Assembly (NCBI GenBank): GCA_964362665.1
Contig: CAYIFB010000005.1
Location: 2,556-66,555, forward strand
Origin: an uncultured Gammaproteobacteria bacterium
GTDB taxonomy: Bacteria; Patescibacteriota; Microgenomatia; 2-02-FULL-39-11
Length of the DNA stretch: 64,000 bases
Direction: 5' to 3'
The notes below the pieces were generated by a model. It was not told where the DNA came from and made no database searches. It worked only from the letters and a program-made list of their open reading frames with translations. The position numbers and the translations under genes were made by a program. This document shows positions 22,166 through 50,352 of this stretch, piece by piece; positions within the stretch are counted from its first letter, which is position 1, and each line of letters begins with the position of its first letter.

Positions 22166-22240
22166 GGGCCTGCCGCTCGTCACCCTATTGCTGTGCCGGG
22201 TTAAACGTCACATCAACAGGGTACCTGACTCGCGTCACCC
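22166..22240 (+). repeat. family A GC-rich repeat, copy 1
   Basis: Starts gggcctgccgctcgtcaccc and ends cctgactcgcgtcaccc. Contains the gggttaaacg core shared with copy 2. Confidence 0.6.
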
Positions 22241-22256
22241 GCTTGCTGTATGACTT

Positions 22257-25973: not shown

Positions 25974-26106
25974 GAGTTTCGCGTTATTATATAGTTATTC
26001 CCAGAGGGTCCTGCCGCTCGTCACCCTGCTGTTGCGTCGGGTTAAACGCCGACAACAGCATGGCACCTGACTCGCGTCACCCACTCGATTTCTGTTAACG
26101 CGAGAC
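25974..26106 (+). repeat. family A repeat copy 2 with flanking terminal inverted repeats (MITE-like, fills the intergenic region)
   Basis: Core gggtcctgccgctcgtcaccc...cctgactcgcgtcaccc (26006-26082). Flanked by gagtttcgcgtta (25974-25986) and taacgcgagact (26095-26106), which are inverted repeats. Confidence 0.7.
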
Positions 26107-35647: not shown

Positions 35648-36802
35648 ATGATTCCAAGTTTTGATATTAAAAGACAAAATAAAACATTAAACCGTGAATT
35701 AAACAGGTCTATTCAAGAAGTATTAGACCGGGGTATCTTTATTTTAGGAGAGAAGGTGGAAGAATTTGAAGACAATTTTGCCTCATATCTCGGGGTAAAA
35801 TATGCAGTCGGGGTAGGGAGTGGGACTGATGCCCTGTCTTTAGCTCTTATTGCAATTGGAATTAAACCGGGAGATGAAGTGATTATGCCGGTAAATGCTT
35901 ACCCCACGGCTTTTGCAGTTACCGCGATTGGTGCCCTCCCCGTCCTTATCGATATTGATCCAGCTACCTTTAACATTAATCCTGATCTCATTGAACAGGC
36001 AATCACCAAGAGAACTCGTGCCATTCTCCCAGTCCACCTCTACGGACTCCCTTGTGATATGAATTCCATCATGAGGATTGCCAAAAAGCACAATCTGAAA
36101 GTCATAGAAGACTGTGCACAGGCACATGGGGCCACGCTGAGCGTGGCTATACCCGCGCTGAGCGCGGGGGCAGAGATTCGTTCACTTTCAACTGGTACTG
36201 ATTTAAATTGGAAAAAAGTGGGCAGCATTGGCGACGCGGGGTGTTTTTCGTTTTATCCGACAAAAAACTTGGGATGTTTTGGTGACGGGGGAATGGTGGT
36301 GACGAATAATAAAGAAATTTACGATAAAGTAAAGCTGCTCAGGATGTATGGGGAAAAGACACGATATAAAAGCGTAATACTCGGGCGAAACAGCAGACTG
36401 GACGAATTGCAGGCGGCAATCTTGTTGGTTAAACTTAAATATTTGGATAAATGGAATAAAAGGAGAAGGGAAATAGCTGAGTTGTATTTATCTCATATAG
36501 CCGGCCCCGCCGAGTCTACTGCCGTAGACTCTTTCTTTCACGTTTATCACTTATTTGTTATCCGGACAAAGAAACGAGACCAATTAAAAAAGCATCTGGA
36601 GGAAAAAGGAATACAAACCGCGGTTCATTACCCAACCCCAGTTCATCTGCAGGAGTCTTTCCGGTTTTTAGGATACAAAAAAGGAGATTTTCCTGTGGCA
36701 GAAAAGTTGGCCGATGAGATTTTGTCCATACCCATGTTTCCTGAATTAACCGAGTCGGAACTTATGGCGGTAGTTTCAGGAATAAATTCTTTCTTCGTAT
36801 GA
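35648..36802 (+). CDS. DegT/DnrJ/EryC1-family PLP-dependent sugar aminotransferase, carrying a roughly 25-aa in-frame insertion
   Basis: 'GVGSGTDALSLAL', 'AQAHGA ... VGSIGDAGCFSFYPTKNLG' (PLP-lysine region). The insertion 'TLSVAIPALSAGAEIRSLSTGTDLNWKK' sits between HGA and VGS, where family members normally have about 5 residues. Confidence 0.8.
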   Translation: MIPSFDIKRQNKTLNRELNRSIQEVLDRGIFILGEKVEEFEDNFASYLGVKYAVGVGSGTDALSLALIAIGIKPGDEVIMPVNAYPTAFAVTAIGALPVLIDIDPATFNINPDLIEQAITKRTRAILPVHLYGLPCDMNSIMRIAKKHNLKVIEDCAQAHGATLSVAIPALSAGAEIRSLSTGTDLNWKKVGSIGDAGCFSFYPTKNLGCFGDGGMVVTNNKEIYDKVKLLRMYGEKTRYKSVILGRNSRLDELQAAILLVKLKYLDKWNKRRREIAELYLSHIAGPAESTAVDSFFHVYHLFVIRTKKRDQLKKHLEEKGIQTAVHYPTPVHLQESFRFLGYKKGDFPVAEKLADEILSIPMFPELTESELMAVVSGINSFFV

Positions 36803-37389
36803 TCAGAGAGTTGCAAGCTGAAGACATAAAACAAGTGGTACAAATACATCTAAGTCAACTGCCGGGTTTTTTATCCCTGCTTGGTAAAGAGCTTTTAACC
36901 AGGTATTATCAGGTAAGTTTAGATACCCCGGAGATGTTTACTCTAGTCGAAAAACAGGATGAACAAATACATGGGTTTACTACCGGAGCGGTGAAGCTGA
37001 AGGGTTTGACAATCAGAATATTATTTAAGGATGTATTAGGTTTCGTTCGCATATTTATGAACATTTTATTTACTCACCCAATTTTACTTTTAGGATCCGT
37101 AAAAACTCTGACTTACCCGGGCTTTAGTCAAGACGTCCCAGAGTTATTAACTATAGCGGTCCAAAAGAATTTTCAAAATAGAGGAATCGGTAAAAAATTA
37201 TTTCAGGCAATCAAAAATAAATTTCAGAAAAGGGGTATCAAATATTTTCAGGTCAGCATGTATGCCAAATTATCTGCAGGCAAATTTTATGAAAAAATGG
37301 GATGCCGTTTAACAAAAAATTTTTCTTTTCAGGGGCAAATCATGAGTTATTATATGTGTAAGGTAAATGAGCGAGGATTAAATAATTAA
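36799..37389 (+). CDS. GNAT-family N-acetyltransferase
   Basis: 'VQKNFQNRGIGKKLFQAI' (motif A Q/RxxGxG/A). Confidence 0.7.
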   Translation: MIRELQAEDIKQVVQIHLSQLPGFLSLLGKELLTRYYQVSLDTPEMFTLVEKQDEQIHGFTTGAVKLKGLTIRILFKDVLGFVRIFMNILFTHPILLLGSVKTLTYPGFSQDVPELLTIAVQKNFQNRGIGKKLFQAIKNKFQKRGIKYFQVSMYAKLSAGKFYEKMGCRLTKNFSFQGQIMSYYMCKVNERGLNN

Positions 37390-37428
37390 CACGCTCATCC
37401 TGAGCGATCGTAGAGAGTCGAAGGATTA

Positions 37429-39171
37429 ATGATTAAAAAAATAAGCACCCATAAATTAACTCTTACTTTATACACAGTTCTTCTGATAATTTTAGCCTAC
37501 CTTCTGAATTGGCATTTTAGGCTGGCACTGACAAGATATTTTGACGTTGATGAATTTGCTCATTTGCACTGGGGTTACAATCTTTGGTCGGGAAAGTATC
37601 CATTCAGAGATTTTTTCTATATATTCCCCCCGTTTTTTTTATATACCATAGCCGCGATTATACAATTTTTCGGCCGAAGCGTGGCTTCACTTATTATGGC
37701 CAGAGTGGTGATTTTTATGGCTTTTTGCGCAATCGCTTTGATGACGTTTTTCATAGCCCGTAAATTAAGCAATACTTTGACAGCCCTCATTTCTGTCATT
37801 ATTTTAAGCATACTTCCGATTCCCGGGGATAAAATGCTGGAAATCCGGCCGGATAATATTGCTTTGTTTCTTTCTCTCTCAGCATTTTATGTCTTTATTC
37901 TGGCTCATGAAAAAAAGTCCCGGATCATGTTTTTTCTGTCCGGCTTATTTTTCAGTGTAAGTCTTGGTTTTGTTCCAAAGACAATATTCTTTCTCATTCC
38001 TCCGGTGGTAATTTTGATTTATGATTTTTTAACACTATCAGGAAACCATAATTTTAACGATTTGAAGCACTATTTTCTGCCATTTTTTACAGGGATAATC
38101 ATACCGGCAATTGCGGTTATTTTGCTTTTTATTTATTATCAGAAACCCATCTTAGCCATTCAGAGCATCACGAGTATTTCAGCTGCAATTACTACCTTAC
38201 TTGGGGTTAAATTTTATATGAGACCGGATATTTTTTTATATCCGAATGACACCTATTATGGATTAAACGGATATAGTTCCGGTTATCTCCTTAATCTTCT
38301 CTTATATTTTTCAGCCAGCATCTTTGCCGTTTTTTTTACACTGTCATCTTTGAGCCACAAAACCCATGAGAAATGCGTGAGAGAGTTTATGACAGGGGCA
38401 ACTTTTTTTCTTAGCCTTTATGCGTTTGTCTATATCTTTCCTTTAAAACATGCCCAATATCTTATTCCGCTTACTCCTTTTATCTCCATCTTTTTCGCAA
38501 TGTTTTTTACCAAACTTATACAGCATAGATATTTGATCAGATATAAGTCTTGGATAATTATGGCAGTCTTAATCTATTTTTGTCTGATTGCCAAAGACAT
38601 GTTTATACCTAAATCGAGATGGACGAATCAGGCGACTTTAGATGAAGTAGAGAATGTCCTGACTGCAATTCCCAAAAATGAAAAGATTTTCGATCTAACC
38701 GGCGAGAGCGTATTTTTTCCGGATGGTTATTACTTCTGTTGTCTGCCTTACGGACAGTATGATGAAGGAATTCCTTTTCAGCTGCCAAGTTTGGAAAAAT
38801 CCTTAAGGGACAATCAAGTGCATTTTGTACACGTTGGGGAAGAAAACAGGCTGGGCGTAATACCTATTTATCAGCAAAAAATTGTTGAGACCTATTATGT
38901 GAAGGATAAATTGGGGATGATGATAGCCGGAAAAAAACTGGATTTTGAACAGGGAAACATCAGCCACAACTTTGAGATAATCGCCGGCGGAAACTATACA
39001 ATTTTTTGGAATGGCGCTCTGAAAGTTAATGGAACGGATACAGTGGTGAGATTGGATGAAAAGGAAGTAAATTCCGAAAATGTATATTTATCATCAGGTA
39101 AGCACAAAATTACAGCGTCTCAAAAGGGTGAATTGATTTTAAAATATATATTTTTCCGCCAAGGCCTCTAA
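37429..39171 (+). CDS. GT-C-like (PMT/ArnT-type) membrane glycosyltransferase with a C-terminal extracytoplasmic domain
   Basis: 'RYFDVDEFAHLHWG' DE motif in the first loop. 11 or more TM helices, then a roughly 200-aa soluble C-terminal domain. Confidence 0.55.
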   Translation: MIKKISTHKLTLTLYTVLLIILAYLLNWHFRLALTRYFDVDEFAHLHWGYNLWSGKYPFRDFFYIFPPFFLYTIAAIIQFFGRSVASLIMARVVIFMAFCAIALMTFFIARKLSNTLTALISVIILSILPIPGDKMLEIRPDNIALFLSLSAFYVFILAHEKKSRIMFFLSGLFFSVSLGFVPKTIFFLIPPVVILIYDFLTLSGNHNFNDLKHYFLPFFTGIIIPAIAVILLFIYYQKPILAIQSITSISAAITTLLGVKFYMRPDIFLYPNDTYYGLNGYSSGYLLNLLLYFSASIFAVFFTLSSLSHKTHEKCVREFMTGATFFLSLYAFVYIFPLKHAQYLIPLTPFISIFFAMFFTKLIQHRYLIRYKSWIIMAVLIYFCLIAKDMFIPKSRWTNQATLDEVENVLTAIPKNEKIFDLTGESVFFPDGYYFCCLPYGQYDEGIPFQLPSLEKSLRDNQVHFVHVGEENRLGVIPIYQQKIVETYYVKDKLGMMIAGKKLDFEQGNISHNFEIIAGGNYTIFWNGALKVNGTDTVVRLDEKEVNSENVYLSSGKHKITASQKGELILKYIFFRQGL

Positions 39172-39837
39172 AATATATTTAATTCCTTCAATCAGGATAT
39201 TGAATTTCGACCTGCGGGTTGTACCGGTATACCGGACGGGGACAGAGGTAATTTTCAGATGTCTATTCATGCTCCATATTGCCAGCTGTGTCTGGAAAAA
39301 AATACTTTGGGCGTTACACGAGGCGAGTAATGGTAAAATTTTAGCCCGCTTCATAAAGATTGTTCCCTGGGTGTCTGAAATAGTGAGCCCAAAAAATATT
39401 TTTGTAAGGTATGAGTGAAGGTAAGTTGCAGTTTTACGGAATAAACCGATTTGATAATGGGATTTTGAGTGTGTTTTTGAGCCGTAGATAAGATCAAATT
39501 CAGAGGAAAGTGCGAGCATTTGTTTCAAATCTTCAAAGCGGAAGGGATTATCAAGCCCGTTGAGATAAACATACGGAAATTTGGCTTTTTGAATCCCTTT
39601 TTTTAAAGCTGTACCGATATTGGTGGAATTTAGATAAGTAATTTGGGAGAATTTTCTGCACAACTTTTGGCAAAGTAAAAGAGTATTATCAGAACTTCCA
39701 TTTTCGCAAAGGATAATTTCAAAACTCCTGATATTATTTTCACGAGACAAATAATCGAGAAATTGCAGAATGGCTTTTTCCAGCAGTGACTCTTCATTTT
39801 TTACAGGTATGACAAGAGACAAATCAATTTTTCTCAT
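39139..39837 (-). CDS. GT2 family glycosyltransferase (DPM1-like)
   Basis: 'LSLVIPVKNEE', 'ILCENGSSDNT', 'IGTALKKG'. The start overlaps the end of the upstream GT-C gene by 14 nt. Confidence 0.7.
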   Translation of the reverse strand: MRKIDLSLVIPVKNEESLLEKAILQFLDYLSRENNIRSFEIILCENGSSDNTLLLCQKLCRKFSQITYLNSTNIGTALKKGIQKAKFPYVYLNGLDNPFRFEDLKQMLALSSEFDLIYGSKTHSKSHYQIGLFRKTATYLHSYLTKIFFGLTISDTQGTIFMKRAKILPLLASCNAQSIFFQTQLAIWSMNRHLKITSVPVRYTGTTRRSKFNILIEGIKYILEALAEKYIF

Positions 39838-41635
39838 AAATGAAAGTGGTGGGCGAGCTGTAAACTTGCTTTAATTTCCATTTAGTTATCAGTTCAGGTT
39901 TTGGCATATTTGTATCACGACTGTACAAAACATAGGACACGTTGTATTTTTTAAAAATTGCCGGTGCATCGGTATCATTTTTGGGTGAGAAAACCAGATA
40001 GGCATCCTCCTTTTTTTTGGTAGAAGCATAGGTATTTGCGGGATGACCATAGACAACTTTGTCATGGGTAAAAGCCGGAATCAGATTGCCTATAAAGCCT
40101 CCGGCAAGAACAACTGACTTATCAGGGGAGTTTTTGTCGAGCCACTTGAAAGCCTTCATGATGTCGTTGGGAACGTAAATATTATAAAAGTTTTTGGTAA
40201 ACTGCAAAGGTTCATTGGTCAGGGAAAAATAAAAGGGAACAAGAGAATACAGGAGTATGGCGACTAAAATTAAAGTGGAAATTATTTTCTGATGTTTGGT
40301 AAAAATTGTTTCCAGATACATGGCTCCAAATCCTGCTAAAATACCGATGGGAATATAGGTGGCAGTTTCCAGAAAATAAACATCACCCAACTGGGGCAGA
40401 AAAAATCTGAATAAGGGAATTCCCAGAATGGGAAAAATAGCCCATCCCAAGAGTATTAAGGAAAGAAAAGTTAATTTCTTGAACATCACTTTCAGTCCGA
40501 TTACCATAAGTATAAAAAATGGACCAAGTGATAAAAGATACTCCCATAATTTGAAAGAAAAAGTGAATTTTACGGCTACTTTATTGTATCCCGACCAGGG
40601 AAAGCCGGAGCGGGAAATGTAAAAAATATATACAAGAGACAATCCGGCTAGCGCGACGTAGACTGCGATGAGCATTAACTTATTTAAGAATAGCGGGTCC
40701 TGTCTCAATATTCGCGGGTCCTGCCGCAAGTTTCTCTCCCGCCAGTACTCGCCTCCGATTGTCGGTTGCGTGCTGTCGGGATCCCTTCTTCTTGCGTCAC
40801 CCGCTCTGATAAAATTTATTATCTGATTAATTAGAACTATCAAAACTGCCGTACCCAGTCCGCCTAAGAGGCTAAGCATGGTGGCAAAATACACAAAACC
40901 CGCCAAAAACCCCAACAAACCTGCCAAGAGACAATAACGGAGTAAATTTTTTTCGAGAGCAATAACAAGAAAATAAACAGACCAAACAGCCAGAATCGTA
41001 CTCAAAAGATGATGGGGAATATAGGTAATTCTCATGATGGGATCAAGTCTGGTCCAGAAAGAGAGAAACTGTTGAAACTCATATTGTCCGTTATTAAACT
41101 TTAAAAACCAGAAGCTATTATTGATTAGAAGAAATAAACAAGTCCAGACGAAATACTTAGGGCTCGTTCCTGAATAATCCTTACGATTATTTAGGATTAC
41201 GGCCCTATGTGGCGTATCCAAAATGTCAACGTTATTTTGGAGTACGCCCTTTTTACTGCCAAAGATTTTATGGGCCAGAAAAAAAGAAGACAAAATCAGG
41301 ACGAACCCGAGAATAATTCTTGAGAAAAAGTAAACGTTGACAAGGGACAGATGAAACCATTTCGCCAGGTGTCCTGTGAACGCGTAGAAAGTATGGACAA
41401 AGGCAGGGGTAAAGCTTTCAGGGGTCATGTAGGTTGTCAAAAGCCAGTGTCCGTCAAACCCCTGGCGCATCAGGGAAAGGTAATAAAAATAATCATCAGG
41501 ATGGTTATGCACCAAAGGAAATACGGTTCCGGCAGGGGTATGTTTCAACCGGGTAAGGTCGGGAATGATGGAAAGTAAAACAAAAGAAGCAGCTAGCAGG
41601 GCCAAAAGAAAGACTGGATTTTTTACTCTTTTCAT
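39824..41635 (-). CDS. GT-C-like membrane glycosyltransferase, paralog family member 3, containing two in-frame repeat-element insertions
   Basis: Family motifs 'HNHPDDYFYYLSLMRQG', 'RITYIPHHLL' and C-terminal 'GNLIPAFTHDKVVYGH'. Contains the family A repeat (40716-40802, translated RAGDARRRDPDSTQPTIGGEYWRERNLRQDP) and the family B repeat (41156-41249, translated DTPHRAVILNNRKDYSGTSPK). Confidence 0.6.
   Translation of the reverse strand: MKRVKNPVFLLALLAASFVLLSIIPDLTRLKHTPAGTVFPLVHNHPDDYFYYLSLMRQGFDGHWLLTTYMTPESFTPAFVHTFYAFTGHLAKWFHLSLVNVYFFSRIILGFVLILSSFFLAHKIFGSKKGVLQNNVDILDTPHRAVILNNRKDYSGTSPKYFVWTCLFLLINNSFWFLKFNNGQYEFQQFLSFWTRLDPIMRITYIPHHLLSTILAVWSVYFLVIALEKNLLRYCLLAGLLGFLAGFVYFATMLSLLGGLGTAVLIVLINQIINFIRAGDARRRDPDSTQPTIGGEYWRERNLRQDPRILRQDPLFLNKLMLIAVYVALAGLSLVYIFYISRSGFPWSGYNKVAVKFTFSFKLWEYLLSLGPFFILMVIGLKVMFKKLTFLSLILLGWAIFPILGIPLFRFFLPQLGDVYFLETATYIPIGILAGFGAMYLETIFTKHQKIISTLILVAILLYSLVPFYFSLTNEPLQFTKNFYNIYVPNDIMKAFKWLDKNSPDKSVVLAGGFIGNLIPAFTHDKVVYGHPANTYASTKKKEDAYLVFSPKNDTDAPAIFKKYNVSYVLYSRDTNMPKPELITKWKLKQVYSSPTTFIYEKN
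40716..40802 (-). repeat. family A repeat copy 4, inserted in-frame inside CDS 39824-41635; a partial duplicate lies at 40693-40706
   Basis: gggtcctgccgcaagtttctctcccgccagtactcgcctccgattgtcggttgcgtgctgtcgggatcccttcttcttgcgtcaccc. About 90% identical to 50148-50234. Confidence 0.65.
41156..41249 (-). repeat. family B 95-bp palindromic repeat copy 2, inserted in-frame inside CDS 39824-41635
   Basis: Reverse complement of 2206-2299 with one mismatch. Confidence 0.75.
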
Positions 41636-41669
41636 GTATTATGTACTTGATTATTTTGAATTATATTAT

Positions 41670-42677
41670 ATGAATAATTCTAAAGTTTTGAAAGTCGCAG
41701 TCATAGGGGTCGGAGCCATGGGTAGAAATCACGCCCGAAGTTATTCCTCTATAAAAGGCGCCTCTTTAGTCGGAGTTGCGGATGTGAACGAAAGCCTGGG
41801 TCGAAAAATTGCCAAGACGTATCACACCAAGTTTTATGCGAGTTATTTAGATTTAATCAGTAATGAAAAACCCCAGGCCGTTAGCATAGTTGTGCCGACG
41901 TCGTTGCATTTTAAAGTTGCCATGGACTGCATCAACCACGGAATTTCAGTTCTGGTGGAAAAACCCCTCACCTCAACAGTTGAGGAAGCGGAAAAGCTAG
42001 TCAGAGAAGCCAAAAAAAGAAAAGTTGTCATACTGGCAGGACATATTGAGCGGTATAATCCGGTTATTGTAAAACTGCAGAAATTGATTAACTCAGGGAA
42101 ATTTGGCGATATTTTATCCATTGTAGTAAAAAGAGTCGGACTTTATCCGCCCAGGGTCAGGGACGTCAATGTGGTGACTGATTTGGCTGTGCATGATTTG
42201 GACATTATCTGTTCACTTCTTGGCCAAACGCCCACGCGGGTTTATGCCAGGGGAGGAAGAAGTTTAAACAATCAGAGGATAGACCACGCCGAAATTTTCC
42301 TCGACTTCGACCGCTCCAGCTGTTTTATTCAGGTCAATTGGATTACACCAATTAAAATAAGAACTCTGTCTATTACCGGAAAAAAAGGATTTGCAGAAAT
42401 CGATTATGTAGCTCAAAAGTTGGATATTTATAAATCAAATAACAACACCGGACTGCCTGCAGGCTTTCAGGAATTTCTTTCCAAATTCGGCGCTCCGCAA
42501 AAAGAGCAAATCAGACTTAAAGGGGAAGAACCCTTACGTCTCGAGCTTGAAGATTTTATACAGGCCGCCAGATTAAACAGATCCACTCTGGTTACTCCGG
42601 AGGAAGGAGTCCGGGCAGTAATGCTTTCCCAGGCAGTTCTTAAAAGCATCGAGCAAAATAAACCTGTTAAAATATGA
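41670..42677 (+). CDS. Gfo/Idh/MocA-family NAD(P)-dependent oxidoreductase (WbpB-like nucleotide-sugar 3-dehydrogenase candidate)
   Basis: 'LKVAVIGVGAMGRNHARSY' Rossmann motif. 'EKPLTSTVEEAEKL' EKP motif. Start set at the Met preceding NNSKVLK, because the longer ORF would overlap the convergent gene. Confidence 0.7.
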   Translation: MNNSKVLKVAVIGVGAMGRNHARSYSSIKGASLVGVADVNESLGRKIAKTYHTKFYASYLDLISNEKPQAVSIVVPTSLHFKVAMDCINHGISVLVEKPLTSTVEEAEKLVREAKKRKVVILAGHIERYNPVIVKLQKLINSGKFGDILSIVVKRVGLYPPRVRDVNVVTDLAVHDLDIICSLLGQTPTRVYARGGRSLNNQRIDHAEIFLDFDRSSCFIQVNWITPIKIRTLSITGKKGFAEIDYVAQKLDIYKSNNNTGLPAGFQEFLSKFGAPQKEQIRLKGEEPLRLELEDFIQAARLNRSTLVTPEEGVRAVMLSQAVLKSIEQNKPVKI

Positions 42678-43405
42678 AAAAAGTTTTTATCAGCGGATCT
42701 ACCCGCGGAATTGGGCGGGAAACCGCGCTAGAATTTGCAAGGAACGGCTATTGTGTGATTCTTAATGGACGACGTAAAAATCAAAAATCAGAGCAGATAC
42801 TTGCGGATATTAAAAAAATTTCCCCTGACTGCGAAATTTACTATTTTGATGTGTCAGATAAGAATAAAGTCAAACAAAACTGCCAAAAGATAGTTAAAAA
42901 ACACGGCTCTCTCGATGTTCTGGTGAATAATGCAGGTATAATCAAAGACAGTTCGTTCATTAAAATGAGTAACGAAGATTGGGATAAAGTTATTAAGACG
43001 AACCTTTATGGTCCTTATAATCTTATCAAAAACTTTTTGCCGGCAATGATCAAAAGACACTACGGGCGAATAATAAATATTTCATCTGTGGTGGCTTTGA
43101 CAGGTAACTTCGGGCAAACAAATTATGCTGCTTCCAAAGCAGGACTTTTGGGATTGACGAAGTCACTTTCCAAGGAAACGGCCAGATATAATATTACAGT
43201 CAACGCAGTTTGTCCCGGTTTTACTAAAACAGAGATGACAGCTTCAATTCCCAAAGATATATTAGAGAAAAAAATCCTGCCTAAAATTCCTGCCGGAAGG
43301 CTGTGTGATCCGAGAGAAGTCGCCAAATTAATCCTGTTTCTTTCCTCCGAGGAGAGCGGTTACATTAATGGAGAATGCATCAATATTAATGGAGGAATGT
43401 TTTAA
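42674..43405 (+). CDS. short-chain dehydrogenase/reductase (FabG-like 3-oxoacyl reductase family)
   Basis: 'ISGSTRGIGRETA', 'NNAGI', 'YAASKAGLLGLTKSL'. Confidence 0.8.
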   Translation: MKKVFISGSTRGIGRETALEFARNGYCVILNGRRKNQKSEQILADIKKISPDCEIYYFDVSDKNKVKQNCQKIVKKHGSLDVLVNNAGIIKDSSFIKMSNEDWDKVIKTNLYGPYNLIKNFLPAMIKRHYGRIINISSVVALTGNFGQTNYAASKAGLLGLTKSLSKETARYNITVNAVCPGFTKTEMTASIPKDILEKKILPKIPAGRLCDPREVAKLILFLSSEESGYINGECININGGMF

Positions 43406-43406
43406 A

Positions 43407-44081
43407 ATGAATGATTGTTTTATCGGTAAATTCGTCAAAATAGGGAGAGGCATAAAAATGGGCCACAACGTGGTTATCCATGACCATGTAACCATCGGAA
43501 AAAACGTACAAATTCACGACAACGCAGTGATAGGACAAAAGCCTTTTTCTTCTAAAATTTTAACCAGAAAATCTACGGCCGGGGCAAAAACTGTCATTTC
43601 TGACGGTAGTATTATAGGTGCAAATGTCGTGCTTTATGCCGGTTGCCAGATCGGGAAAAATACCATTATCTCGGATTTGGCAGCCATCCGCGAAAACTGC
43701 CGGATTGGAAATCAATGTACAATCGGAACCGGAGTGACCATAAATTTAGGAGCGGTAATCAAAAACAAGGTGAGAATCATGAATTCATCGCACATAACTT
43801 CCGATACTTTAATTGAAGATAATGTCTTTATCAGCGTGCATGTCACTTCCACCAATGATAATAAAATGGGCAGGTCAAAATTTAAAATGAAAGGCGTACA
43901 TATAAAAAAAGGCGCCTCAATAGGAGCTGGCGTAGTTTTCCTGCCGGGGGTGACTGTAGGAAGGCAGGCGGTAGTTGGCGCAGGAGCTGTCGTGACCCAT
44001 GACATTCCTGACAACAAAATGGTCTTCGGAATTCCTGCCAGAATTGTCAAAGATACGCCTGAAGATATGAAAAGCAAGTAA
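43407..44081 (+). CDS. hexapeptide-repeat (left-handed beta-helix) acyl/acetyltransferase, WbpD-like
   Basis: Repeated [LIV]GxxxxI hexads ('IGKNVQIHDNAVIGQ', 'IGANVVLYAGCQIGKNTII'). ATG at 43407 lies 1 nt after the upstream stop. Confidence 0.7.
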   Translation: MNDCFIGKFVKIGRGIKMGHNVVIHDHVTIGKNVQIHDNAVIGQKPFSSKILTRKSTAGAKTVISDGSIIGANVVLYAGCQIGKNTIISDLAAIRENCRIGNQCTIGTGVTINLGAVIKNKVRIMNSSHITSDTLIEDNVFISVHVTSTNDNKMGRSKFKMKGVHIKKGASIGAGVVFLPGVTVGRQAVVGAGAVVTHDIPDNKMVFGIPARIVKDTPEDMKSK

Positions 44082-44086
44082 TAATT

Positions 44087-45289
44087 ATGGAAATAAAAAT
44101 TTCTAATCCCTTTATCGGCAAAGAGGAAATAAACGCCGTTATCAAAGTGTTAAAAAGCGGAAATTTAGCCAGCGGAAACGTGGTTTCCGAGTTTGAAAGA
44201 GAATTTAAAGAGTATATCGGCGTCAAACATGTTGTTGCAGTATCAAGCGGTACTTCAGCATTACTTATTTCATTACTCGCCCTCGGAATTGGCCCGGGTG
44301 ATGAGGTGATTACTACTGCTTTTACTTTCCGGGCTACGATTGAAACCATTATTTTTTGCGGTGCCCTCCCCAAACTTGTTGATATTGATCCTTCTACCTA
44401 TAACATTAATCCTGATCTCATTGAACAGGCAATTACCAAGAGAACCCGTGCCATTCTCCCAGTCCACCTCTACGGACTCCCTTGTGATATGAATTCCATC
44501 ATGAGAATTGCCAAAAAGCACAATCTGAAAGTCATAGAAGACTGTGCACAGGCGCATGGAGCGTCTATCGCAGCCTCTGAGGTCGGTATGACTTTTTTGC
44601 GCACCTCCCAAACTCCCCCGATGCTATATCGGGGTCGAGGCCGTGGGCGTGCTCAAAAAGCATACCTCCCCGCGGCTGCTGAAGTTTTGCAAAAAGTAGG
44701 CAGTATAGGCGACGCGGGGTGTTTTTCGTTTTACGCTACCAAAAATATGACGACAGGTGAGGGGGGAATGATTACCACCAATAATGATGAATTATTTCAA
44801 AATATACTTCGTATCATAAAACATGAGGGGAAATTAAATATTGATTTATTAGATATACATTTCAGGATGACCGATATCCAGGCAGCGTTAGGACGGGTGC
44901 AATTAAAAAGATTAGACAGACTAAACAGGATAAGAATTAAAAATGCCAATTTTTATAAGCAAAAATTAAGTACGGTGAAAGGTTTGATCTGCCCGAAGGT
45001 GCCGGAAGGCAAAAAACATGTTTTTCATCAGTATACGGTGAAAATCAATGATAATTATTCTCTCTCCCGAGAGATGCTGTTAAAGAAATTAGAACAAGCT
45101 GGAATTCAAGCGAGAATCTATTATCCTCAGCCAATTCATAAATTATCATTATTTACAGGGTTATTCACCGGAAAAAATTTATCCCGGTCAGAACAAGTGG
45201 CCAAAGAGGTTTTATCACTTCCCATACATCCCAAACTTAATATAAAACAATTAAAGTCGATCGTTAACTGCCTTAAAAACGATAAATAA
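44087..45289 (+). CDS. DegT/DnrJ/EryC1-family sugar aminotransferase (WbpE-like), carrying a roughly 45-aa in-frame insertion
   Basis: 'AVSSGTSALLISL', 'AQAHGA ... VGSIGDAGCFSFYATKNMTTGEGG'. Insertion 'SIAASEVGMTFLRTSQTPPMLYRGRGRGRAQKAYLPAAAEVLQK'. A 160-nt block at 44401-44561 is near-identical to 35971-36131. Confidence 0.8.
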   Translation: MEIKISNPFIGKEEINAVIKVLKSGNLASGNVVSEFEREFKEYIGVKHVVAVSSGTSALLISLLALGIGPGDEVITTAFTFRATIETIIFCGALPKLVDIDPSTYNINPDLIEQAITKRTRAILPVHLYGLPCDMNSIMRIAKKHNLKVIEDCAQAHGASIAASEVGMTFLRTSQTPPMLYRGRGRGRAQKAYLPAAAEVLQKVGSIGDAGCFSFYATKNMTTGEGGMITTNNDELFQNILRIIKHEGKLNIDLLDIHFRMTDIQAALGRVQLKRLDRLNRIRIKNANFYKQKLSTVKGLICPKVPEGKKHVFHQYTVKINDNYSLSREMLLKKLEQAGIQARIYYPQPIHKLSLFTGLFTGKNLSRSEQVAKEVLSLPIHPKLNIKQLKSIVNCLKNDK

Positions 45290-47018
45290 CTGCCTGAGGA
45301 TTATTGTAGACAGGTTTTAAAAAGGGATAGACCATCTCTAAGCTCTTTCCTTTGGATTTTTCTTTTTCCTGGACGCTGACGAAGATATATTTGACACGGT
45401 TATTTTTCAGGAAGATTTCCGCTTCCCGTACCGGCATTTTGCCTGTATAAAATCTATCAACCAGACGCTGTTTTTCCTCATAATTGACGGTATTTGATTG
45501 GCCAAAGAAGACGGTATTGCCGGAGTAGGCGGGAATAAAATTGCCGGCGGTGATTTCAGCCAAAACCACATCACTGCGAATTGTGTTATTTTTCAGCCAG
45601 CGTATGCCATCCATCCAGGTTCTCAGAGGATACATGGTTTGGGGAGGATAGGGGACAGCCGGAATATTGGCCCGTACTCTTTGGGTAATGAAATTGGTCT
45701 GCCAGGATATACTAACTTTCATCATAAAGAAATTTAATGCAAGATAACAAATAACAAATAACAGATAACAGAAACAGAAAAAATGCTTTACCGACAAATC
45801 TTTATATTTGAAACTCACGATAAATTCCCAAACTTGTTGGAAAAAGTAAACAGCCAGAAGTCCTAAAGGAATGAAAAGCCCGGTTTGGGTGAAGCGGAGC
45901 GGGCTTTGCTCTTTGATATAGGTAAAAAGTATGGCAAAAAGAAAAGTCATCAAAATCCAAAAAGTGAGAGGATGAAATTTGCTGTCTCTTTTGACAAGTG
46001 AGATGAAAATACCAAAAAGAGCCAGAAAAAAGACAGGACCGGTTCCCAAAAGATATTCCCAAAAAGGAATGAGCATAGGATGGGTCTGGTGGAAAATTAC
46101 CAGAGATGACCAGGGAGGTACGCGGGTGATAAAAAATAAGTAAATTAAAGATGGTGCACTAAGAATTATGAATAATATCAGCTTGCTGAGGTCGGGTAAG
46201 AAATTTGTCGTATCTGCAAGTCGTTCGTCTCGATTGAATAGGGACTCACTCTCCCTTCGGTGCAGATAACGCCAAATTTTTACCCTCCCCGCAAGCTTAA
46301 TGAAGATGATTGTCATAATGATTCCGTAAAGAGTCATTAAACTTGGAGGAAACACTAAGCCTACGGCATTGCCTAAAATTATTAGCGGTATCAATTGTTT
46401 CAATGATAAATTGTTAATTTTTTTTATTACCAACCAATACAGCAGGAAAAACGATCCGACCTGGCCGAATAAGATGTGGGGGATGAAGGTGATTCTTTGC
46501 ACCGCGTCGATATTCGACCACCATTCCATGAACCGGCCGACCTGAAACGCTCCATTATTTTCCATGATCAGCCTGGGAAAACTGCCTGATGAAAGAATTA
46601 TTAAAAAGGCTAAAACCTGCCAGAAAAACTTTTTAAAATATACTTTGGTCAGGAAACAAATCATAATTAAAAGTAGAGGAGACAGAATAATCCTGCCCAA
46701 CTGATAAGCTGAATTAGGACTTAGTCCCATCGTTTTACCAAGTAGTCCTAAAACGACATAAAATTCCTGAATGAGTGATCCCTGGTGTGGTTCGCTCGTG
46801 AAACGCTCCAGGGCAGTCAGGCGTCCTTCAGTGCCCTGTCTGATTTTGGAGAGGTAAAGATTATAATCAGGCCAGTAGAAATTATGTTCCAGAATAAATT
46901 CACGGTTAGGGTCTCCCAGGCTTTTGGACTTCGATAATTCAAAAATCGTGGGATAAAAAGAGATTGCCAAAAAAACGATTATTAGAGAAGTAAAAATGAT
47001 AGTTTTTACTGAATTCAT
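45273..47018 (-). CDS. GT-C-like membrane glycosyltransferase, paralog family member 4
   Basis: 'EHNFYWPDYNLYLSKIRQG', 'RITFIPHILFGQ', C-terminal 'GNFIPAYSGNTVFFGQ...FYTGKMP'. Start set at MNSVKT, because the upstream 28 codons of the longer ORF are a repeat element. A GC-rich segment at 46200-46290 may be another in-frame insertion. Confidence 0.6.
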   Translation of the reverse strand: MNSVKTIIFTSLIIVFLAISFYPTIFELSKSKSLGDPNREFILEHNFYWPDYNLYLSKIRQGTEGRLTALERFTSEPHQGSLIQEFYVVLGLLGKTMGLSPNSAYQLGRIILSPLLLIMICFLTKVYFKKFFWQVLAFLIILSSGSFPRLIMENNGAFQVGRFMEWWSNIDAVQRITFIPHILFGQVGSFFLLYWLVIKKINNLSLKQLIPLIILGNAVGLVFPPSLMTLYGIIMTIIFIKLAGRVKIWRYLHRRESESLFNRDERLADTTNFLPDLSKLILFIILSAPSLIYLFFITRVPPWSSLVIFHQTHPMLIPFWEYLLGTGPVFFLALFGIFISLVKRDSKFHPLTFWILMTFLFAILFTYIKEQSPLRFTQTGLFIPLGLLAVYFFQQVWEFIVSFKYKDLSVKHFFCFCYLLFVICYLALNFFMMKVSISWQTNFITQRVRANIPAVPYPPQTMYPLRTWMDGIRWLKNNTIRSDVVLAEITAGNFIPAYSGNTVFFGQSNTVNYEEKQRLVDRFYTGKMPVREAEIFLKNNRVKYIFVSVQEKEKSKGKSLEMVYPFLKPVYNNPQAVIYRF

Positions 47019-47144
47019 ACGAGATCCTTCGACGCGTTTCGGGACGTACCGTATGGAACATCCCTTCGCTTGCTCAGGATGACATCGCCTTCGGCGAGTC
47101 ACTTGACCATGATAATATTATAGCTTAACATAAGGCACGAATAT

Positions 47145-48179: not shown

Positions 48180-50147
48180 TTTTTGGGAAGGAAGAAGATT
48201 TAGGGCCGACGGAGATGAGTTTTCCAGATCGAGGGTGGGATTTTCAATTACCTTAACTTTTTTCAACTTCAGACTTCCGGTGGCAGTTATGGCTTCAGGA
48301 AATTGGGAGAGTTCATCTTCAATCTTTTTCATGTCACCCGAATCAAGTGGAATGAGGGATGCGGCGGTTTGAAGCTCTTTATAAGCTTCATCATACTTTT
48401 TTTGAGAGCGAAGCGCGACAGCCAGATCAAAGTGGGCATTAGCCAGGTCGGGTTTGAGATAGATTGCCTGGCGAAAGAGCATTTCCGCATCCGCATATTT
48501 TTTCAGATTAAGGTAAAGTACGCCTAAAGCAATCCTGTTTTTGGGAGACAGTGGATCCAGGGTGATTTTCTGCTGCTGGCTTTGGACGGCGAAGTTATCT
48601 GCGCCTGCTGCGTATCCGATGATATTGGAATAGGTTTTAGTCAGGTTGTCCCAGTTGATAACATTTGTGCGGAAAAGATTGACTGAAACACGGGCTTCAT
48701 CAATTGCCTGCTGGACCAGTCGGGGAATATTTTGTTGATCTTCAGCTGTGGGGTTCTTTTTAGATGCCAGAGCATTGGCCAGGGCCAAATTGGTTTGGGA
48801 GAGGGCATTGTGGTAGCGGTCGATATAGGGGTTAAGTTTTATGGCTTGCCTTTGGTAATTATAGGCAAGTGTTCCCTGATTATTGATCAGAGAATCCAAT
48901 GATTTTTTAAAATTCATTTCGGCGAAGTATGCTTTTCCTCCAAAAAAAATAACTAGAGAAAATATTATCAGAGAGGGTAAAATTAAGAGATATTTTAAAA
49001 ATCCCAGACTGGAAAAGTCTATTTCAAATGACGGTTTTTTACTCCCGGAAACAGCTAAAAGTATGATGGCCGTCGTCAAAAGTACCATACTGGTGGGAAG
49101 GATTATCTGCAGAAAAAGTATGGCGACTGCCATAATTTTGAAGGAATAAAAATTAGCGTTTTCATGATTTTTTATCAGAGCCTCTCCAAACAATTGTTTC
49201 ACTGCTTTAATAATAATTAAGACATACATTAAACCTGCAAATAATCCGTATTCAGTCAAAAGATTCAGAAGAAATGATGAGGAAGAGGTAAAAACTATAT
49301 TCCAGACAGGACTGCTGTTTATCGTCATGGGCTTGGAAAGTGTGAAAGCGGTAATAAAATTTGCAGGGCCAATTCCCAAGGCAAGCGTCCTGATGTTTTT
49401 TAAGGTTTCGAGCATTATAGACCAGCCGAAATTAAGGGGCAGAAGAATAGGCGACTGGTTGGTAGCAAGATGTATGGAAGTGATAATTGTAGCCGTTGTG
49501 ATGAGAAGTGCCGCGCTACCATAAAAAAGATAAAGATAACCCCAGGACCCTGATTGCATTATTTGGTTTTTTTCTTCACCATCTGAAATGAAATATTTTA
49601 AAAGGCAATAGATGGGATGAATCCCTAAAACGGCGAGAAATGTAACAGTTGAGAGGAGGCTTCCGGCCGGCGTTTGGATACTTTTGGGTAAAATTCCCAA
49701 ATAAAGAAAAATAAGATATAAAGATAATAAGACAGCATCAACCAAAAGAATCTGCATAAGGGTCGATTTATCATTTTCATCGACGGCATACGTCAAAAAA
49801 AGATAAAACAAAAAACCTTCAACAATAGTTGTAGTTGCAAGCGGGGTAGTGAGCGAGATAGCAAGATTTGGGGATTGGAAGAGGGTTGAGGCGATGACAA
49901 AGCCGGTGAGAAGCGAAAAGGGATATAAATAAATGTCTTTGATGACCATTAATTTCTGCTCTGTGATTATTCTGACCGACATCAGGATAAAGCCGACTGA
50001 GATAAATAAAGCCAGAAGAGCCATTTTGTTGTACTCATAATATTCAGGCACGATCTGAAGAAAAAATAAGGGGAAGAGAAAAACAAAGAGGAAAGTGGAA
50101 TATTTAATTATTTTTTTGATTGACATATATTTCGCAATGTCTATCAC
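48150..50147 (-). CDS. O-antigen ligase / Wzy_C-domain polytopic membrane protein with C-terminal TPR repeats (PglL/WaaL-like oligosaccharide transferase or polymerase)
   Basis: About 12 TM helices with a large loop of the Wzy_C type. The C-terminal roughly 250 aa hold TPR-like repeats ('YADAEMLFRQAIYLKPDLANAHFDLAVALRSQKKYDEAYKELQTA'). Confidence 0.6.
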   Translation of the reverse strand: MIDIAKYMSIKKIIKYSTFLFVFLFPLFFLQIVPEYYEYNKMALLALFISVGFILMSVRIITEQKLMVIKDIYLYPFSLLTGFVIASTLFQSPNLAISLTTPLATTTIVEGFLFYLFLTYAVDENDKSTLMQILLVDAVLLSLYLIFLYLGILPKSIQTPAGSLLSTVTFLAVLGIHPIYCLLKYFISDGEEKNQIMQSGSWGYLYLFYGSAALLITTATIITSIHLATNQSPILLPLNFGWSIMLETLKNIRTLALGIGPANFITAFTLSKPMTINSSPVWNIVFTSSSSFLLNLLTEYGLFAGLMYVLIIIKAVKQLFGEALIKNHENANFYSFKIMAVAILFLQIILPTSMVLLTTAIILLAVSGSKKPSFEIDFSSLGFLKYLLILPSLIIFSLVIFFGGKAYFAEMNFKKSLDSLINNQGTLAYNYQRQAIKLNPYIDRYHNALSQTNLALANALASKKNPTAEDQQNIPRLVQQAIDEARVSVNLFRTNVINWDNLTKTYSNIIGYAAGADNFAVQSQQQKITLDPLSPKNRIALGVLYLNLKKYADAEMLFRQAIYLKPDLANAHFDLAVALRSQKKYDEAYKELQTAASLIPLDSGDMKKIEDELSQFPEAITATGSLKLKKVKVIENPTLDLENSSPSALNLLPSQKLIPTVVPQQ

Positions 50148-50234
50148 GGGTCCTGCCGCAAGTTTCCCTCCCGCCAGTACTCGACTCGGATTCTCGTTTG
50201 CGTGCTGTCGGGATCCCTTCCTCTTGCGTCACCC
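50148..50234 (+). repeat. family A repeat copy 5, immediately upstream of the start of 48150-50147
   Basis: gggtcctgccgcaagtttccctcccgccagtactcgactcggattctcgtttgcgtgctgtcgggatcccttcctcttgcgtcaccc. Confidence 0.65.
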
Positions 50235-50352
50235 GCTTATCCTTAATTATTATCTAAAACGACGGGATTCTCAAGGAGGGGATTTCAGGTATCAGGTGTC
50301 AGGTATCAGGTGTCAGAACTAAAACCTATAACCTAAAACCTGCAACCTTACA

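What the first reader, a model, noticed from the sequence alone, without database searches (positions are those of the whole stretch)
35648..45289. Two DegT aminotransferase paralogs share a 160-nt near-identical block and each carries a different GC-rich palindromic in-frame insertion at the same site
The proteins are only moderately similar overall. Yet 35971-36131 and 44401-44561 differ at about 4 positions, and a second short block at 36226-36260 resembles 44696-44730. That is a signature of gene conversion. Immediately after the shared block, between the conserved AQAHGA and VGSIGDAGCFSFY segments and just before the PLP-lysine region, both copies hold extra sequence. Copy 1 adds about 25 aa and copy 2 about 45 aa. 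The insertions are unrelated to each other and contain hairpins: gccacgctgagcgtggc and cccgcgctgagcgcggg in copy 1, ccccgatgctatatcgggg in copy 2. This looks like RPE-like element insertion into an enzyme surface loop, and recombination between paralogs.
Basis: seen in the sequence. Interest (0 to 1): 0.6.

Follow-up and report, generated by a model that had tools for sequence, protein, structure and literature searches.

The report
Mobile hairpin repeats inside sugar-aminotransferase genes
Two related sugar-aminotransferase genes of an uncultured groundwater bacterium have recently swapped a stretch of DNA, and one carries, in frame in a surface loop, a copy of a small mobile hairpin repeat that also sits inside other genes, much like the palindromic elements known from Rickettsia.

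Summary
The two DegT genes (35648-36802 and 44087-45289) are 44% identical as proteins. Yet they share a 203-nt block at 94% identity (154 of 159 nt in its core) and a 60-nt block at 85%. Synonymous sites are identical too, and the paralogs are closer to each other than copy 1 is to its ortholog. This is recent gene conversion, with signs of exchange in both directions.

Both genes carry in-frame extra sequence at the tip of the beta-hairpin between AQAHGA and KVGSIGD.

The copy 2 insert (about 44570-44681) belongs to a dispersed palindromic repeat I call family A:
- 20 distinct copies were found here.
- About half are intergenic and ten are in frame inside unrelated genes, in both orientations.
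- The hairpin shows compensatory changes.
- A copy 97% identical sits in a different gene of a related species.

This behaviour is RPE-like (MITE-like).

The copy 1 insert has no copy elsewhere. It looks like a local duplication of a hairpin built on native codons.

Among 115 homologs, mostly from candidate-phyla-radiation (CPR) bacteria, 58 carry large inserts at this same site, in at least 29 unrelated types.

I rate it a new member of a known kind, of moderate to high interest.

The parts
35648..36802 (+). DegT copy 1, a QdtB-like sugar aminotransferase of 384 aa. It is followed by a GNAT acetyltransferase gene.
   Evidence: Pfam PF01041, E 2e-116. Best PDB matches are 7b0d and QdtB 3frk. 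AlphaFold2 mean pLDDT 88.
44087..45289 (+). DegT copy 2, a perosamine-synthase/WbpE-like sugar aminotransferase of 400 aa. It is preceded by Gfo/Idh/MocA oxidoreductase, SDR and hexapeptide acetyltransferase genes.
   Evidence: Pfam PF01041, E 7e-121. PDB sequence matches. AlphaFold2 mean pLDDT 90. Foldseek target-normalised TM 0.89-0.93 to solved sugar aminotransferases.
35930..36132 (+). Upstream conversion tract, copy 1 side.
   Evidence: 203 nt, 94% identical to 44360-44562. Third-position identity 85-95%. z = 13 against shuffles.
44360..44562 (+). Upstream conversion tract, copy 2 side.
   Evidence: Same as above. Paralogs are 167/174 identical against 137/174 for copy 1 versus its ortholog.
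36208..36267 (+). Downstream shared block, copy 1 side. It resumes directly after the insert.
   Evidence: 60 nt, 85% identical to 44686-44745. Third-position identity 74%.
44686..44745 (+). Downstream shared block, copy 2 side. It encodes KVGSIGDAGCFSFY, a motif of the copy 1 subfamily.
36134..36214 (+). Copy 1 loop of 27 codons, where 5 is canonical. It holds two tandem 7-bp-stem hairpins with TGA loops (36131-36147 and 36152-36168) followed by a non-palindromic tail.
   Evidence: Sequence. The two hairpins differ by two compensatory double changes. The first overlaps native codons ATLS, as seen in the insert-free homolog P0023. No other copy anywhere. AlphaFold2 pLDDT below 50 at residues 172-183.
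44570..44681 (+). Family A palindromic repeat element, in frame in the copy 2 loop (the whole loop is 44564-44692, 43 codons).
   Evidence: Rod-like hairpin, MFE -55 kcal/mol, z = -5.1. Covariance-model (CM) score 93.7 bits. Homologous copies in 13 metagenome loci. 97% identical to L086 6270-6385, which lies in a different gene. AlphaFold2 pLDDT below 65 at residues 163-200.
36512..36531 (+). Mini-hairpin GAGTCTAC-TGCC-GTAGACTC at a second DegT site (AGPAES|TAV|DSFF). It is probably the remnant of a deleted family A element.
   Evidence: It aligns with the outer stem GAGTCTGC...GCAGACTC of a full element at the same site in the syntenic relative L086, with a compensatory change. Weak CM hit, termini only.
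46180..46299 (+). Second element with family A termini (TTGCTGAGGTCGG...CCCTCCCCGCAA). It lies antisense and in frame inside the membrane-protein ORF 45273-47102 (-).
   Evidence: CM 40.8 bits, E 4.5e-8. Fold z = -5.8. Open frame confirmed.
40712..40805 (-). Family B GC-rich element, in frame in the membrane-protein ORF 39824-41635 (-). At the orthologous site in L086 sits a family A element.
   Evidence: 93% identical to the intergenic copy at 50144-50237. Fold z = -5.0. Orthology of the site.
50144..50237 (-). Intergenic copy of the family B element.

Best explanation
The window comes from an AT-rich (about 40% GC) candidate-phyla-radiation (CPR) bacterium. Its named relatives are Gottesmanbacteria (Microgenomates), and the sample is Hainich groundwater. 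Two processes overlap at one spot of two paralogous sugar aminotransferase genes.

1. Gene conversion. The central part of the two genes, about 35930-36267 and 44360-44745, has been homogenised by recombination between the paralogs. This happened more recently than the split from a syntenic sister species, and exchange went in both directions. Each tract stops at the non-homologous insert.

2. Insertion of small palindromic DNA.
- The tip of the beta-hairpin between the PLP-binding Asp/Gln motif (EDCAQAHGA) and the strand leading to the catalytic lysine (KVGSIGD...SFYxTK) tolerates extra peptide. In this lineage it has repeatedly acquired small palindromic DNA.
- In copy 2 the extra DNA is one copy of a non-autonomous, rod-like palindromic repeat of about 90-135 nt, here called family A. 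It has conserved termini and arms (..TTGCTGAGGTCG..CTTTTTSCGCACCTCCCAAA [variable tip] GGGCGTGCTCAAAAG..CTCCCCGCAA..).
- Family A spreads within and between related genomes. Inside genes it survives only where it keeps the frame open and lands in a surface loop. This is the behaviour of Rickettsia palindromic elements.
- In copy 1 the extra DNA is most likely a local tandem duplication and perfection of a short hairpin seeded by native codons, plus a tail of unknown origin.

Shown here: the tract statistics, element family membership, dispersal, covariation, and the in-frame state.

Inferred: that the inserts are translated, that the enzymes stay active, how the element moves, and why this site is hit so often.
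For: Conversion:
- Block identity and synonymous-site statistics.
- Paralogs are 167/174 identical against 137/174 for copy 1 versus its ortholog.
- In both copies the tract mixes residues diagnostic of the copy 2 subfamily (L131, C133, N108, D110) with residues diagnostic of the copy 1 subfamily (L97, C153, KVGSIGDAG).

Element family:
- The copy 2 insert shares arms and architecture with the inserts in P0010 and P0009.
- A metagenome pattern scan found 14 matches in 13 loci.
- A covariance model finds 26 hits in 162 kb of CPR loci and none in 528 kb of non-CPR DegT loci.
- 11 of 29 stem pairs show compensatory double changes.
- Of 20 distinct copies, 10 are in frame inside ORFs, in both orientations and several frames. 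These are DegT site 1, DegT site 2, three membrane proteins, a LeuB-like gene and a LeuD-like gene. The rest are intergenic or at ORF ends.
- Element similarity does not follow location. Copy 2's element is 97% identical to one in a membrane-protein gene of L086, whose flanking genes are only 73-85% identical, and 61-73% identical to other elements at DegT site 1.

Permissive loop:
- AlphaFold2 models are confident except in the inserts, which sit between two short strands.
- The fold matches solved enzymes.
- 58 of 115 homologs carry more than 10 extra residues at this site, in at least 29 sequence clusters. In copy 2's own subfamily nearly all have none.

Copy 1 hairpins on native codons.
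Against: - No transposase, target-site duplication or empty-site polymorphism was found, so mobility is inferred only from distribution and sequence identity.
- All loci come from metagenome assemblies. One replicate assembly (L001, coverage 3) joins copy 2 to copy 1 inside the 59-nt exact run, so the repeat does confuse assemblers.
- Copy 2 downstream of that run is supported only by the window's own contig.
- Translation of the inserts and enzyme activity are untested.
- The copy 1 insert has a weak fold z-score (-1.0 to -1.9) and no relatives, so its origin is uncertain.
- Only 64 kb of this genome was available, and it holds just two family A copies.
Confidence: 0.75

Rival explanations
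1. The inserts are ancestral, fast-evolving, lineage-specific loop extensions of the enzyme. No mobile DNA is involved.
For: - Many CPR homologs carry some extension at this loop.
- The copy 1 insert has no other copy and overlaps native codons.
Against: - The copy 2 insert has copies in intergenic DNA and in unrelated genes.
- It is 97% identical to a copy in another gene of another species.
- The ortholog of copy 1 carries a different insert.
- Copy 2's own subfamily almost never has an insert.
Confidence: 0.08
2. The near-identical block or the hybrid structure is an assembly artefact, with sequence of one paralog pasted into the other.
For: - Contig L001 (replicate R3, coverage 3) is a copy 2/copy 1 hybrid that switches inside the 59-nt exact run.
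- Contig L086 of the sister species ends at the start of the block.
Against: - Replicate assemblies R1 (a 21-kb contig, L002) and R2 (L003) reproduce copy 1 with all 12 of its block variants.
- L001 reproduces copy 2's variants upstream of the switch.
- The two copies keep 12 consistent differences.
- Copy 2's N- and C-terminal parts both belong to the same subfamily.
Confidence: 0.05
3. The hairpin inserts are removed or skipped at the RNA or translation level (intron-like excision or ribosomal bypass), so they never appear in the protein.
For: - The hairpins are strong and conserved, with covariation.
- GC-rich hairpin inserts in AT-rich genes recall the bypassed elements of yeast mitochondria (my own knowledge).
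Against: - All ten intragenic copies keep an open frame and add a multiple of three bases.
- They occur in both orientations relative to the host gene, which an RNA-level signal would not tolerate.
- No Rfam family, ribozyme or intron matches.
- Only 34 of 84 frames of the elements are open, so open frames in every intragenic copy implies selection for read-through.
Confidence: 0.05
4. Family A is a functional structured RNA or DNA signal, for example an mRNA-stabilising or regulatory hairpin, kept by selection rather than a selfish repeat. Its presence in DegT would then be regulatory.
For: - Invariant boxes outside the search pattern (CTGAGGTCG, CTCCCCGC) and compensatory changes.
- Several intergenic copies lie just upstream of genes.
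Against: - Copies occur in both orientations, in several frames, inside unrelated genes and nested within another repeat.
- There is no consistent position relative to genes.
- No Rfam match.
- Conserved termini with a variable tip are typical of non-autonomous mobile elements.
Confidence: 0.1

Closest known systems
Rickettsia palindromic elements (RPE; Ogata et al. 2000 Science; Ogata et al. 2002 Genome Res, as summarised in PMC10969869)
   Same: - Palindromic repeats of about 100-150 nt.
- Many copies, both intergenic and in frame inside unrelated housekeeping genes.
- The host protein fold is predicted to be preserved and the insert sits at the surface.
- Found in a small, reduced genome.
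   Different: - A different phylum (CPR/Microgenomates) and no shared sequence known.
- The elements here are GC-rich in an AT-rich genome, are used in several frames and in both orientations, and are often nested inside a second repeat family.
- The same protein site is occupied by different elements in different genomes.
Bacterial MITEs (for example Correia, ERIC, Nezha, BOX)
   Same: - Short, non-coding and multi-copy.
- Terminal inverted repeats and a long hairpin potential.
- Occasional intragenic in-frame copies.
   Different: - No target-site duplication or parent insertion sequence was identified here.
- Half of the copies seen are intragenic, which is unusually high.
Gene conversion and concerted evolution of bacterial paralogs (for example tuf genes or rRNA operons; my own knowledge)
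   Same: A short tract of near-identity, including synonymous sites, inside otherwise diverged paralogs. The paralogs are closer to each other than orthologs are.
   Different: - The tract is only about 200-340 nt and lies between members of different DegT subfamilies.
- It is mosaic in direction.
- It is interrupted exactly at a non-homologous insert.
REP/BIME elements mobilised by RAYT transposases
   Same: GC-rich hairpin repeats dispersed in the genome.
   Different: REPs are 20-40 nt and extragenic, with a conserved 5' tetranucleotide. Family A is 90-135 nt, often intragenic, and no RAYT gene was seen.

Membership tests
DegT/DnrJ/EryC1/StrS sugar aminotransferases (PF01041) | Full-length match to the family profile above the curated cut-off | tested here: met
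   389 and 404 bits against a cut-off of 19.8. PDB relatives at E 1e-113 and 4e-81.
DegT/DnrJ/EryC1/StrS sugar aminotransferases (PF01041) | Conserved PLP-site motifs: Asp of EDxxQ, and the catalytic Lys in SFYxTK | tested here: met
   EDCAQAHGA is present in both copies, with SFYPTK in copy 1 and SFYATK in copy 2. The columns are invariant in alignments A2 and A5.
Protein-coding palindromic repeats of the RPE kind (by behaviour, not homology) | Dispersed in multiple copies | tested here: met
   20 distinct family A copies across the window and CPR loci, with up to 4 in 9 kb (L090). None in 528 kb of control loci.
Protein-coding palindromic repeats of the RPE kind (by behaviour, not homology) | Palindromic; folds into one long hairpin | tested here: met
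   z-scores of -4.7 to -6.5. 29-pair consensus with 11 covarying pairs.
Protein-coding palindromic repeats of the RPE kind (by behaviour, not homology) | In-frame copies inside unrelated genes as well as intergenic copies | tested here: met
   10 in-ORF copies in DegT (two sites), three membrane proteins, a LeuB-like gene and a LeuD-like gene. The rest are intergenic or at ORF ends.
Protein-coding palindromic repeats of the RPE kind (by behaviour, not homology) | The insert lies at a surface site compatible with the fold | tested here: met
   By prediction only. Low-pLDDT excursions sit between strands 160-162 and 201-203 in copy 2 and between 163-166 and 187-190 in copy 1. The rest of each model is confident.
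Protein-coding palindromic repeats of the RPE kind (by behaviour, not homology) | The insert is translated as part of the protein | not testable with these tools
   Needs proteomics or expression data. Open frames are the only indirect support.
Rickettsia RPE families proper (homology) | Sequence similarity to the RPE consensus sequences | not tested
   No RPE sequences were available to compare. The host phylum and base composition differ, and I do not claim membership.
MITE | Terminal inverted repeats, short length, no coding capacity of its own | tested here: met
   Termini ATTTTGCTGAGG...CCCCGCAAAAT, length 88-135 nt.
MITE | Target-site duplication flanking the element | tested here: inconclusive
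   Inspection of the flanks of 14 copies shows no consistent direct repeat.
MITE | A related autonomous insertion sequence with matching ends and a transposase | not tested
   None was noticed in the fetched loci. No whole genome was available.
REP/BIME | 20-40 nt extragenic palindrome with a conserved 5' tetranucleotide, associated with a RAYT | tested here: not met
   The elements are 88-135 nt and half are intragenic.
Intein or self-splicing intron | Size and conserved splice motifs, or an RNA family match | tested here: not met
   The inserts are 22-40 aa. No Rfam hit at the gathering threshold or at E up to 10.
Gene conversion tract | Identity elevated at synonymous sites in a bounded tract, with paralogs more alike than orthologs | tested here: met

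The most novel reading that the evidence does not exclude
CPR (Microgenomates) bacteria harbour an undescribed system of modular, nested, GC-rich palindromic repeats (families A and B and others). These preferentially enter pre-existing hairpins. In this way they repeatedly re-occupy the same few sites in glycan-biosynthesis and housekeeping genes.

The result would be hypervariable surface loops (at least 29 insert types at one DegT loop) and local hotspots of recombination and gene conversion. That would amount to a hairpin-targeted, possibly transposase-independent way for selfish DNA to write new peptide segments into proteins.
Probability: 0.25. Interest if true: 0.75.

Novelty: new member of a known kind. 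Interest (0 to 1): 0.6.

Why it matters
Palindromic repeats that insert in frame into many genes have been treated as a peculiarity of Rickettsia. [quoted passage not shown] An independent example in the candidate phyla radiation would show that this route of protein change recurs in small, AT-rich genomes.

It would also help explain why CPR proteins so often carry odd lineage-specific insertions.

It warns annotators and structure predictors that such segments may be selfish DNA.

Finally, it flags a practical hazard. The converted block already produced a chimeric contig in one assembly of the same sample.

Tried and rejected
- Rfam at the gathering threshold on the whole window, and at E up to 10 on the copy 2 insert: nothing credible. 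The only hits were DUF3800-VIII at 25 bits against a cut-off of 40, and a snoRNA.
- tRNA and tmRNA scan: none.
- BLAST of both inserts against the window: no second copy at the nucleotide level. The second family A copy at 46180 was found only with the covariance model.
- The single genome-contig scan returned 80 mostly non-CPR, insert-free DegT loci, because ranking favoured uninterrupted matches. I used them only as a negative control.
- Two viral-contig scans for family A: no match.
- Search for the copy 1 hairpin unit in all fetched loci: found only in the same-population contigs.
- BLAST of the site-1 inserts of P0003, P0020 and P0021 against all loci: no further copies in the limited data.
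- Terminator scan: the number of hits is not above the shuffled expectation, and the inserts are not followed by T-runs.
- Direction of conversion: my first reading, copy 1 type to copy 2 only, was dropped after per-residue analysis showed a mosaic.
- Literature searches for RPE-like or MITE elements in CPR/Patescibacteria found nothing relevant.
- Intein, intron and ribosomal-bypass readings were rejected on size, open frames and orientation.

Full report
**What is there**

The region lies in a glycan-biosynthesis locus of an AT-rich genome, about 40% GC. Identical proteins occur on contigs from Hainich groundwater well H51, 0.2 um fraction, replicates R1-R3. The closest named relatives are Candidatus Gottesmanbacteria and other Patescibacteria.

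ORF 35648-36802 (copy 1) and ORF 44087-45289 (copy 2) are both DegT/DnrJ/EryC1 aminotransferases.
- Copy 1 groups with QdtB-like enzymes. A GNAT acetyltransferase gene follows it.
- Copy 2 groups with perosamine-synthase/WbpE-like enzymes. It sits after Gfo/Idh/MocA oxidoreductase, SDR and hexapeptide-transferase genes.
- As proteins the two are 44% identical.

**The shared block is real and is gene conversion**

- The repeat finder gives 35930-36132 = 44360-44562 (203 nt, 94%) and 36208-36267 = 44686-44745 (60 nt, 85%).
- In a codon alignment, third-position identity is 85-95% inside the block and 74% just after the insert, against 13-53% elsewhere.
- The best 53-codon window has 154 of 159 identical bases. 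Shuffled codon columns give a mean of 106.7 and a maximum of 121 (z = 13).
- Among codons for identical residues, 53 of 58 are the same codon inside the tract and 44 of 90 outside.
- A syntenic sister species is available (L086 and L099, 73-85% DNA identity). In the tract, copy 1 and its ortholog are 137/174 identical, while the two paralogs of the window are 167/174 identical. Homogenisation is therefore younger than that speciation.
- Per-residue comparison with about 58 members of each subfamily shows a mosaic. Both copies share residues typical of copy 2's subfamily (N108, D110, L111, L131, C133, H145). They also share residues typical of copy 1's subfamily (L97, C153 in EDCAQ, and KVGSIGDAG). 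Exchange has gone both ways.
- P0123 is a copy-2-like gene from another genome. It shows the same copy-1-like patch plus a 40-aa insert, so this exchange seems recurrent in the lineage.

**Assembly check**

- Protein P0002 lies on contig L001 (replicate R3, 5.8 kb, coverage 3). That contig joins copy 2's upstream genes and N-terminal part to copy 1's insert, C-terminal part and downstream genes.
- The switch lies inside the longest exact run, 59 nt at 36017-36075. This is what a de Bruijn graph assembler would produce, although a real recombinant cannot be excluded.
- Contigs L002 (R1, 21 kb) and L003 (R2) reproduce copy 1 with all of its block variants. L001 reproduces copy 2's variants before the switch.
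- The block is therefore not an artefact. Copy 2 downstream of the run rests on the window's contig alone.

**Where the inserts sit**

- Alignments to 7b0d and QdtB (3frk) put both inserts between AQAHGA and KVGSIGD. Among the closest homologs of copy 1 the commonest spacer there is 5 residues.
- Copy 1 has 27 residues there and copy 2 has 43-45.
- AlphaFold2 models are confident overall, with mean pLDDT 90 and 88.
- The inserts are low-confidence excursions. In copy 2, residues 163-200 lie between strands 160-162 and 201-203. In copy 1, residues 167-186 lie between strands 163-166 and 187-190.
- The copy 2 model superposes on solved sugar aminotransferases with target-normalised TM 0.89-0.93.

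**The copy 2 insert is a copy of a dispersed palindromic repeat (family A)**

- Its DNA (57% GC against 38% for the rest of the gene) folds into one long rod: -55 kcal/mol, z = -5.1.
- The site-1 inserts of homologs P0010 and P0009 share its arms and architecture, with compensatory changes.
- A metagenome scan with two arm motifs found 14 copies in 13 loci.
- Boxes that were not part of the search pattern (CTGAGGTCG, CTCCCCGC) are invariant or nearly so.
- RNAalifold predicts 29 pairs, 11 of them with double compensatory changes.
- A covariance model built from these copies finds 26 hits in 162 kb of CPR loci and none in 528 kb of non-CPR DegT loci.
- Of 20 distinct copies, ten are in frame inside ORFs:
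  - DegT site 1, three times
  - a second DegT site, AGPxES|...|DSFFHVYHLF, twice
  - three membrane proteins
  - an isopropylmalate-dehydrogenase-like gene
  - an aconitase-C/LeuD-like gene
- These copies use both orientations and several reading frames. The other copies are intergenic or at ORF ends.
- Only 34 of 84 element frames are open. The invariably open frames of intragenic copies therefore indicate selection for read-through.
- Similarity among elements does not follow location:
  - Copy 2's element is 97% identical to L086 6270-6385. That copy lies in the ortholog of window ORF 39824-41635.
  - It is only 61-73% identical to other DegT site-1 elements.
  - The P0010 site-1 element is 92% identical to the L086 DegT site-2 element.
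- This pattern argues for movement, or exchange between loci, rather than vertical inheritance at one site.

**The copy 1 insert is different**

- It consists of two tandem hairpins, GCCACGC-TGA-GCGTGGC and CCCGCGC-TGA-GCGCGGG, and a non-palindromic tail. The two hairpins differ by two compensatory double changes.
- The insert-free homolog P0023 reads GCCACGTTGAGTGGG (ATLSG) at this spot, and P0021 starts its own insert with GCCGCGTTGAGCGCGGG. The first hairpin is therefore built on native codons.
- No other copy exists in the window or in any fetched locus.
- The whole insert folds only marginally better than shuffles (z = -1.0 to -1.9).
- I read it as local duplication and perfection of a quasi-palindrome. 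This is an inference with moderate confidence.
- Copy 1 also carries a 20-nt mini-hairpin at the second DegT site (36512-36531). It matches the outer stem of the full family A element at that same site in L086 and includes a compensatory change. This is most simply a remnant left by deletion of the element's interior.

**The site is a hotspot across the lineage**

- Among 115 of the top 120 homologs of copy 1 in which both flanking motifs were found, 45 have the canonical spacer, 12 have 2-10 extra residues and 58 have more than 10 extra.
- Those 58 fall into at least 29 sequence clusters.
- Of the site-1 inserts whose DNA I fetched, the family A copies and those of P0003 and P0020 fold as strong hairpins (z = -3.1 to -4.9). 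P0021's folds only weakly (z = -2.0). P0020's insert carries the termini of a second repeat, family B.
- In copy 2's own subfamily almost all members lack an insert. By the motif scan, 72 of 74 have the canonical spacing, the window's own copy 2 being one of the two exceptions.

**Other elements in the window**

- The window itself holds more such DNA:
  - a second element with family A termini at 46180-46299, antisense and in frame in ORF 45273-47102
  - a family B copy at 40712-40805, in frame in ORF 39824-41635, with a 93% identical intergenic copy at 50144-50237
  - a 29-nt AT-rich palindrome at 41168-41196, within a 31-aa insertion of the same ORF, with a second copy at 2259-2287
- Family A copies are often flanked by family B termini (L085 site 2, the L086 membrane-protein gene, L087, L098), which suggests nesting.

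**Mechanism and rivals**

My best reading, at about 0.75 confidence, combines two processes. Recurrent gene conversion homogenises the conserved core of two neighbouring paralogs. Selfish palindromic repeats survive inside genes only where the frame stays open and the peptide lands in a permissive surface loop.

Two questions stay open:
- Is the hotspot due only to such filtering, or also to a preference of the elements for existing hairpins?
- Did copy 2's element arrive together with a converted tract from a copy-1-type donor, or insert afterwards?

I consider four rivals unlikely for the reasons given with each: an ancestral loop, an assembly artefact, RNA-level removal or ribosomal bypass, and a functional regulatory hairpin.

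**Comparison with what is known**

- The behaviour matches Rickettsia palindromic elements (Ogata 2000 and 2002, via PMC10969869) and, more loosely, bacterial MITEs.
- I do not claim homology to RPEs. No target-site duplication or parent transposon was found.
- I found no report of such elements in CPR bacteria.
- I therefore rate it a new member of a known kind. It has unusual features that deserve a genome-wide follow-up: re-occupation of the same site by different elements, nesting, remnants, and coincidence with a conversion tract.

Noticed in passing
window 40712-40805; 50144-50237; 22166-22252; 26007-26094; L100 4487-4660: A second GC-rich repeat, family B, with termini GCGGGTCCTGCCGC...CTCGCGTCACCCGC. 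One copy is in frame in membrane-protein ORF 39824-41635 (-) and three are intergenic. A B-type element fills DegT site 1 in homolog P0020. B termini flank family A copies in several loci, which suggests nesting.
   Followed up: partly
window 46180-46299: An element with family A termini but a different interior. It lies antisense and in frame inside membrane-protein ORF 45273-47102 (-), where it encodes IKLAGRVKIWRYLHRRESESLFNRDERLADTTNFLPDLSKL.
   Followed up: partly
window 41150-41245 (palindrome at 41168-41196) and 2259-2287: A 29-nt AT-rich palindrome, TCCTGAATAATCCTTACGATTATTTAGGA. It lies in a 31-aa in-frame insertion of ORF 39824-41635 that is absent from the L086 ortholog. A near-identical palindrome sits at 2259-2287.
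   Followed up: partly
L001 (Hainich_H51_02um_R3 contig, 5805 bp): A hybrid contig that joins copy 2's upstream genes and N-terminal part to copy 1's insert and downstream genes. The switch lies inside the 59-nt exact run. It is probably an assembly chimera, but it could be the junction of a real recombinant or duplication.
   Followed up: partly
L086 ends (positions 1 and 9162): The contig of the sister species starts inside the site-1 insert of the copy 1 ortholog and ends at the start of the shared block in the copy 2 ortholog. This hints that the block is a near-identical repeat in that genome too.
   Followed up: no
window 16956-17046 and 17722-17812: A 91-nt direct repeat (89% identical) containing a GC-rich hairpin. 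It brackets ORF 17059-17715, which looks methyltransferase-like. The neighbouring ORF is only 24% identical, so this is not a simple tandem gene duplication.
   Followed up: partly
window 52585-53150: Dense GT-rich repeats with a 6/12/18-nt period (23 overlapping copies) inside the 1303-aa ORF 52055-55966 (-). This is a low-complexity repeat region of a large protein.
   Followed up: no
window 47018-47102 and 50290-50330: Upstream of the membrane-protein gene lies a hairpin of the widespread '...ctcaggatgac' type. The GTG-start N-terminal extension MTRRRRCHPEQAKG... is therefore probably not coding. At 50290-50330 there is a short tandem repeat, ctgacacctgatacctgacacctgatacctga, in intergenic DNA.
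   Followed up: no
L090 (OBEQ010389182.1, 8870 bp): Four family A copies within 9 kb. Two are in frame in a LeuB-like gene (Iso_dh) and a LeuD-like gene (Aconitase_C), so housekeeping enzymes are invaded as well.
   Followed up: partly
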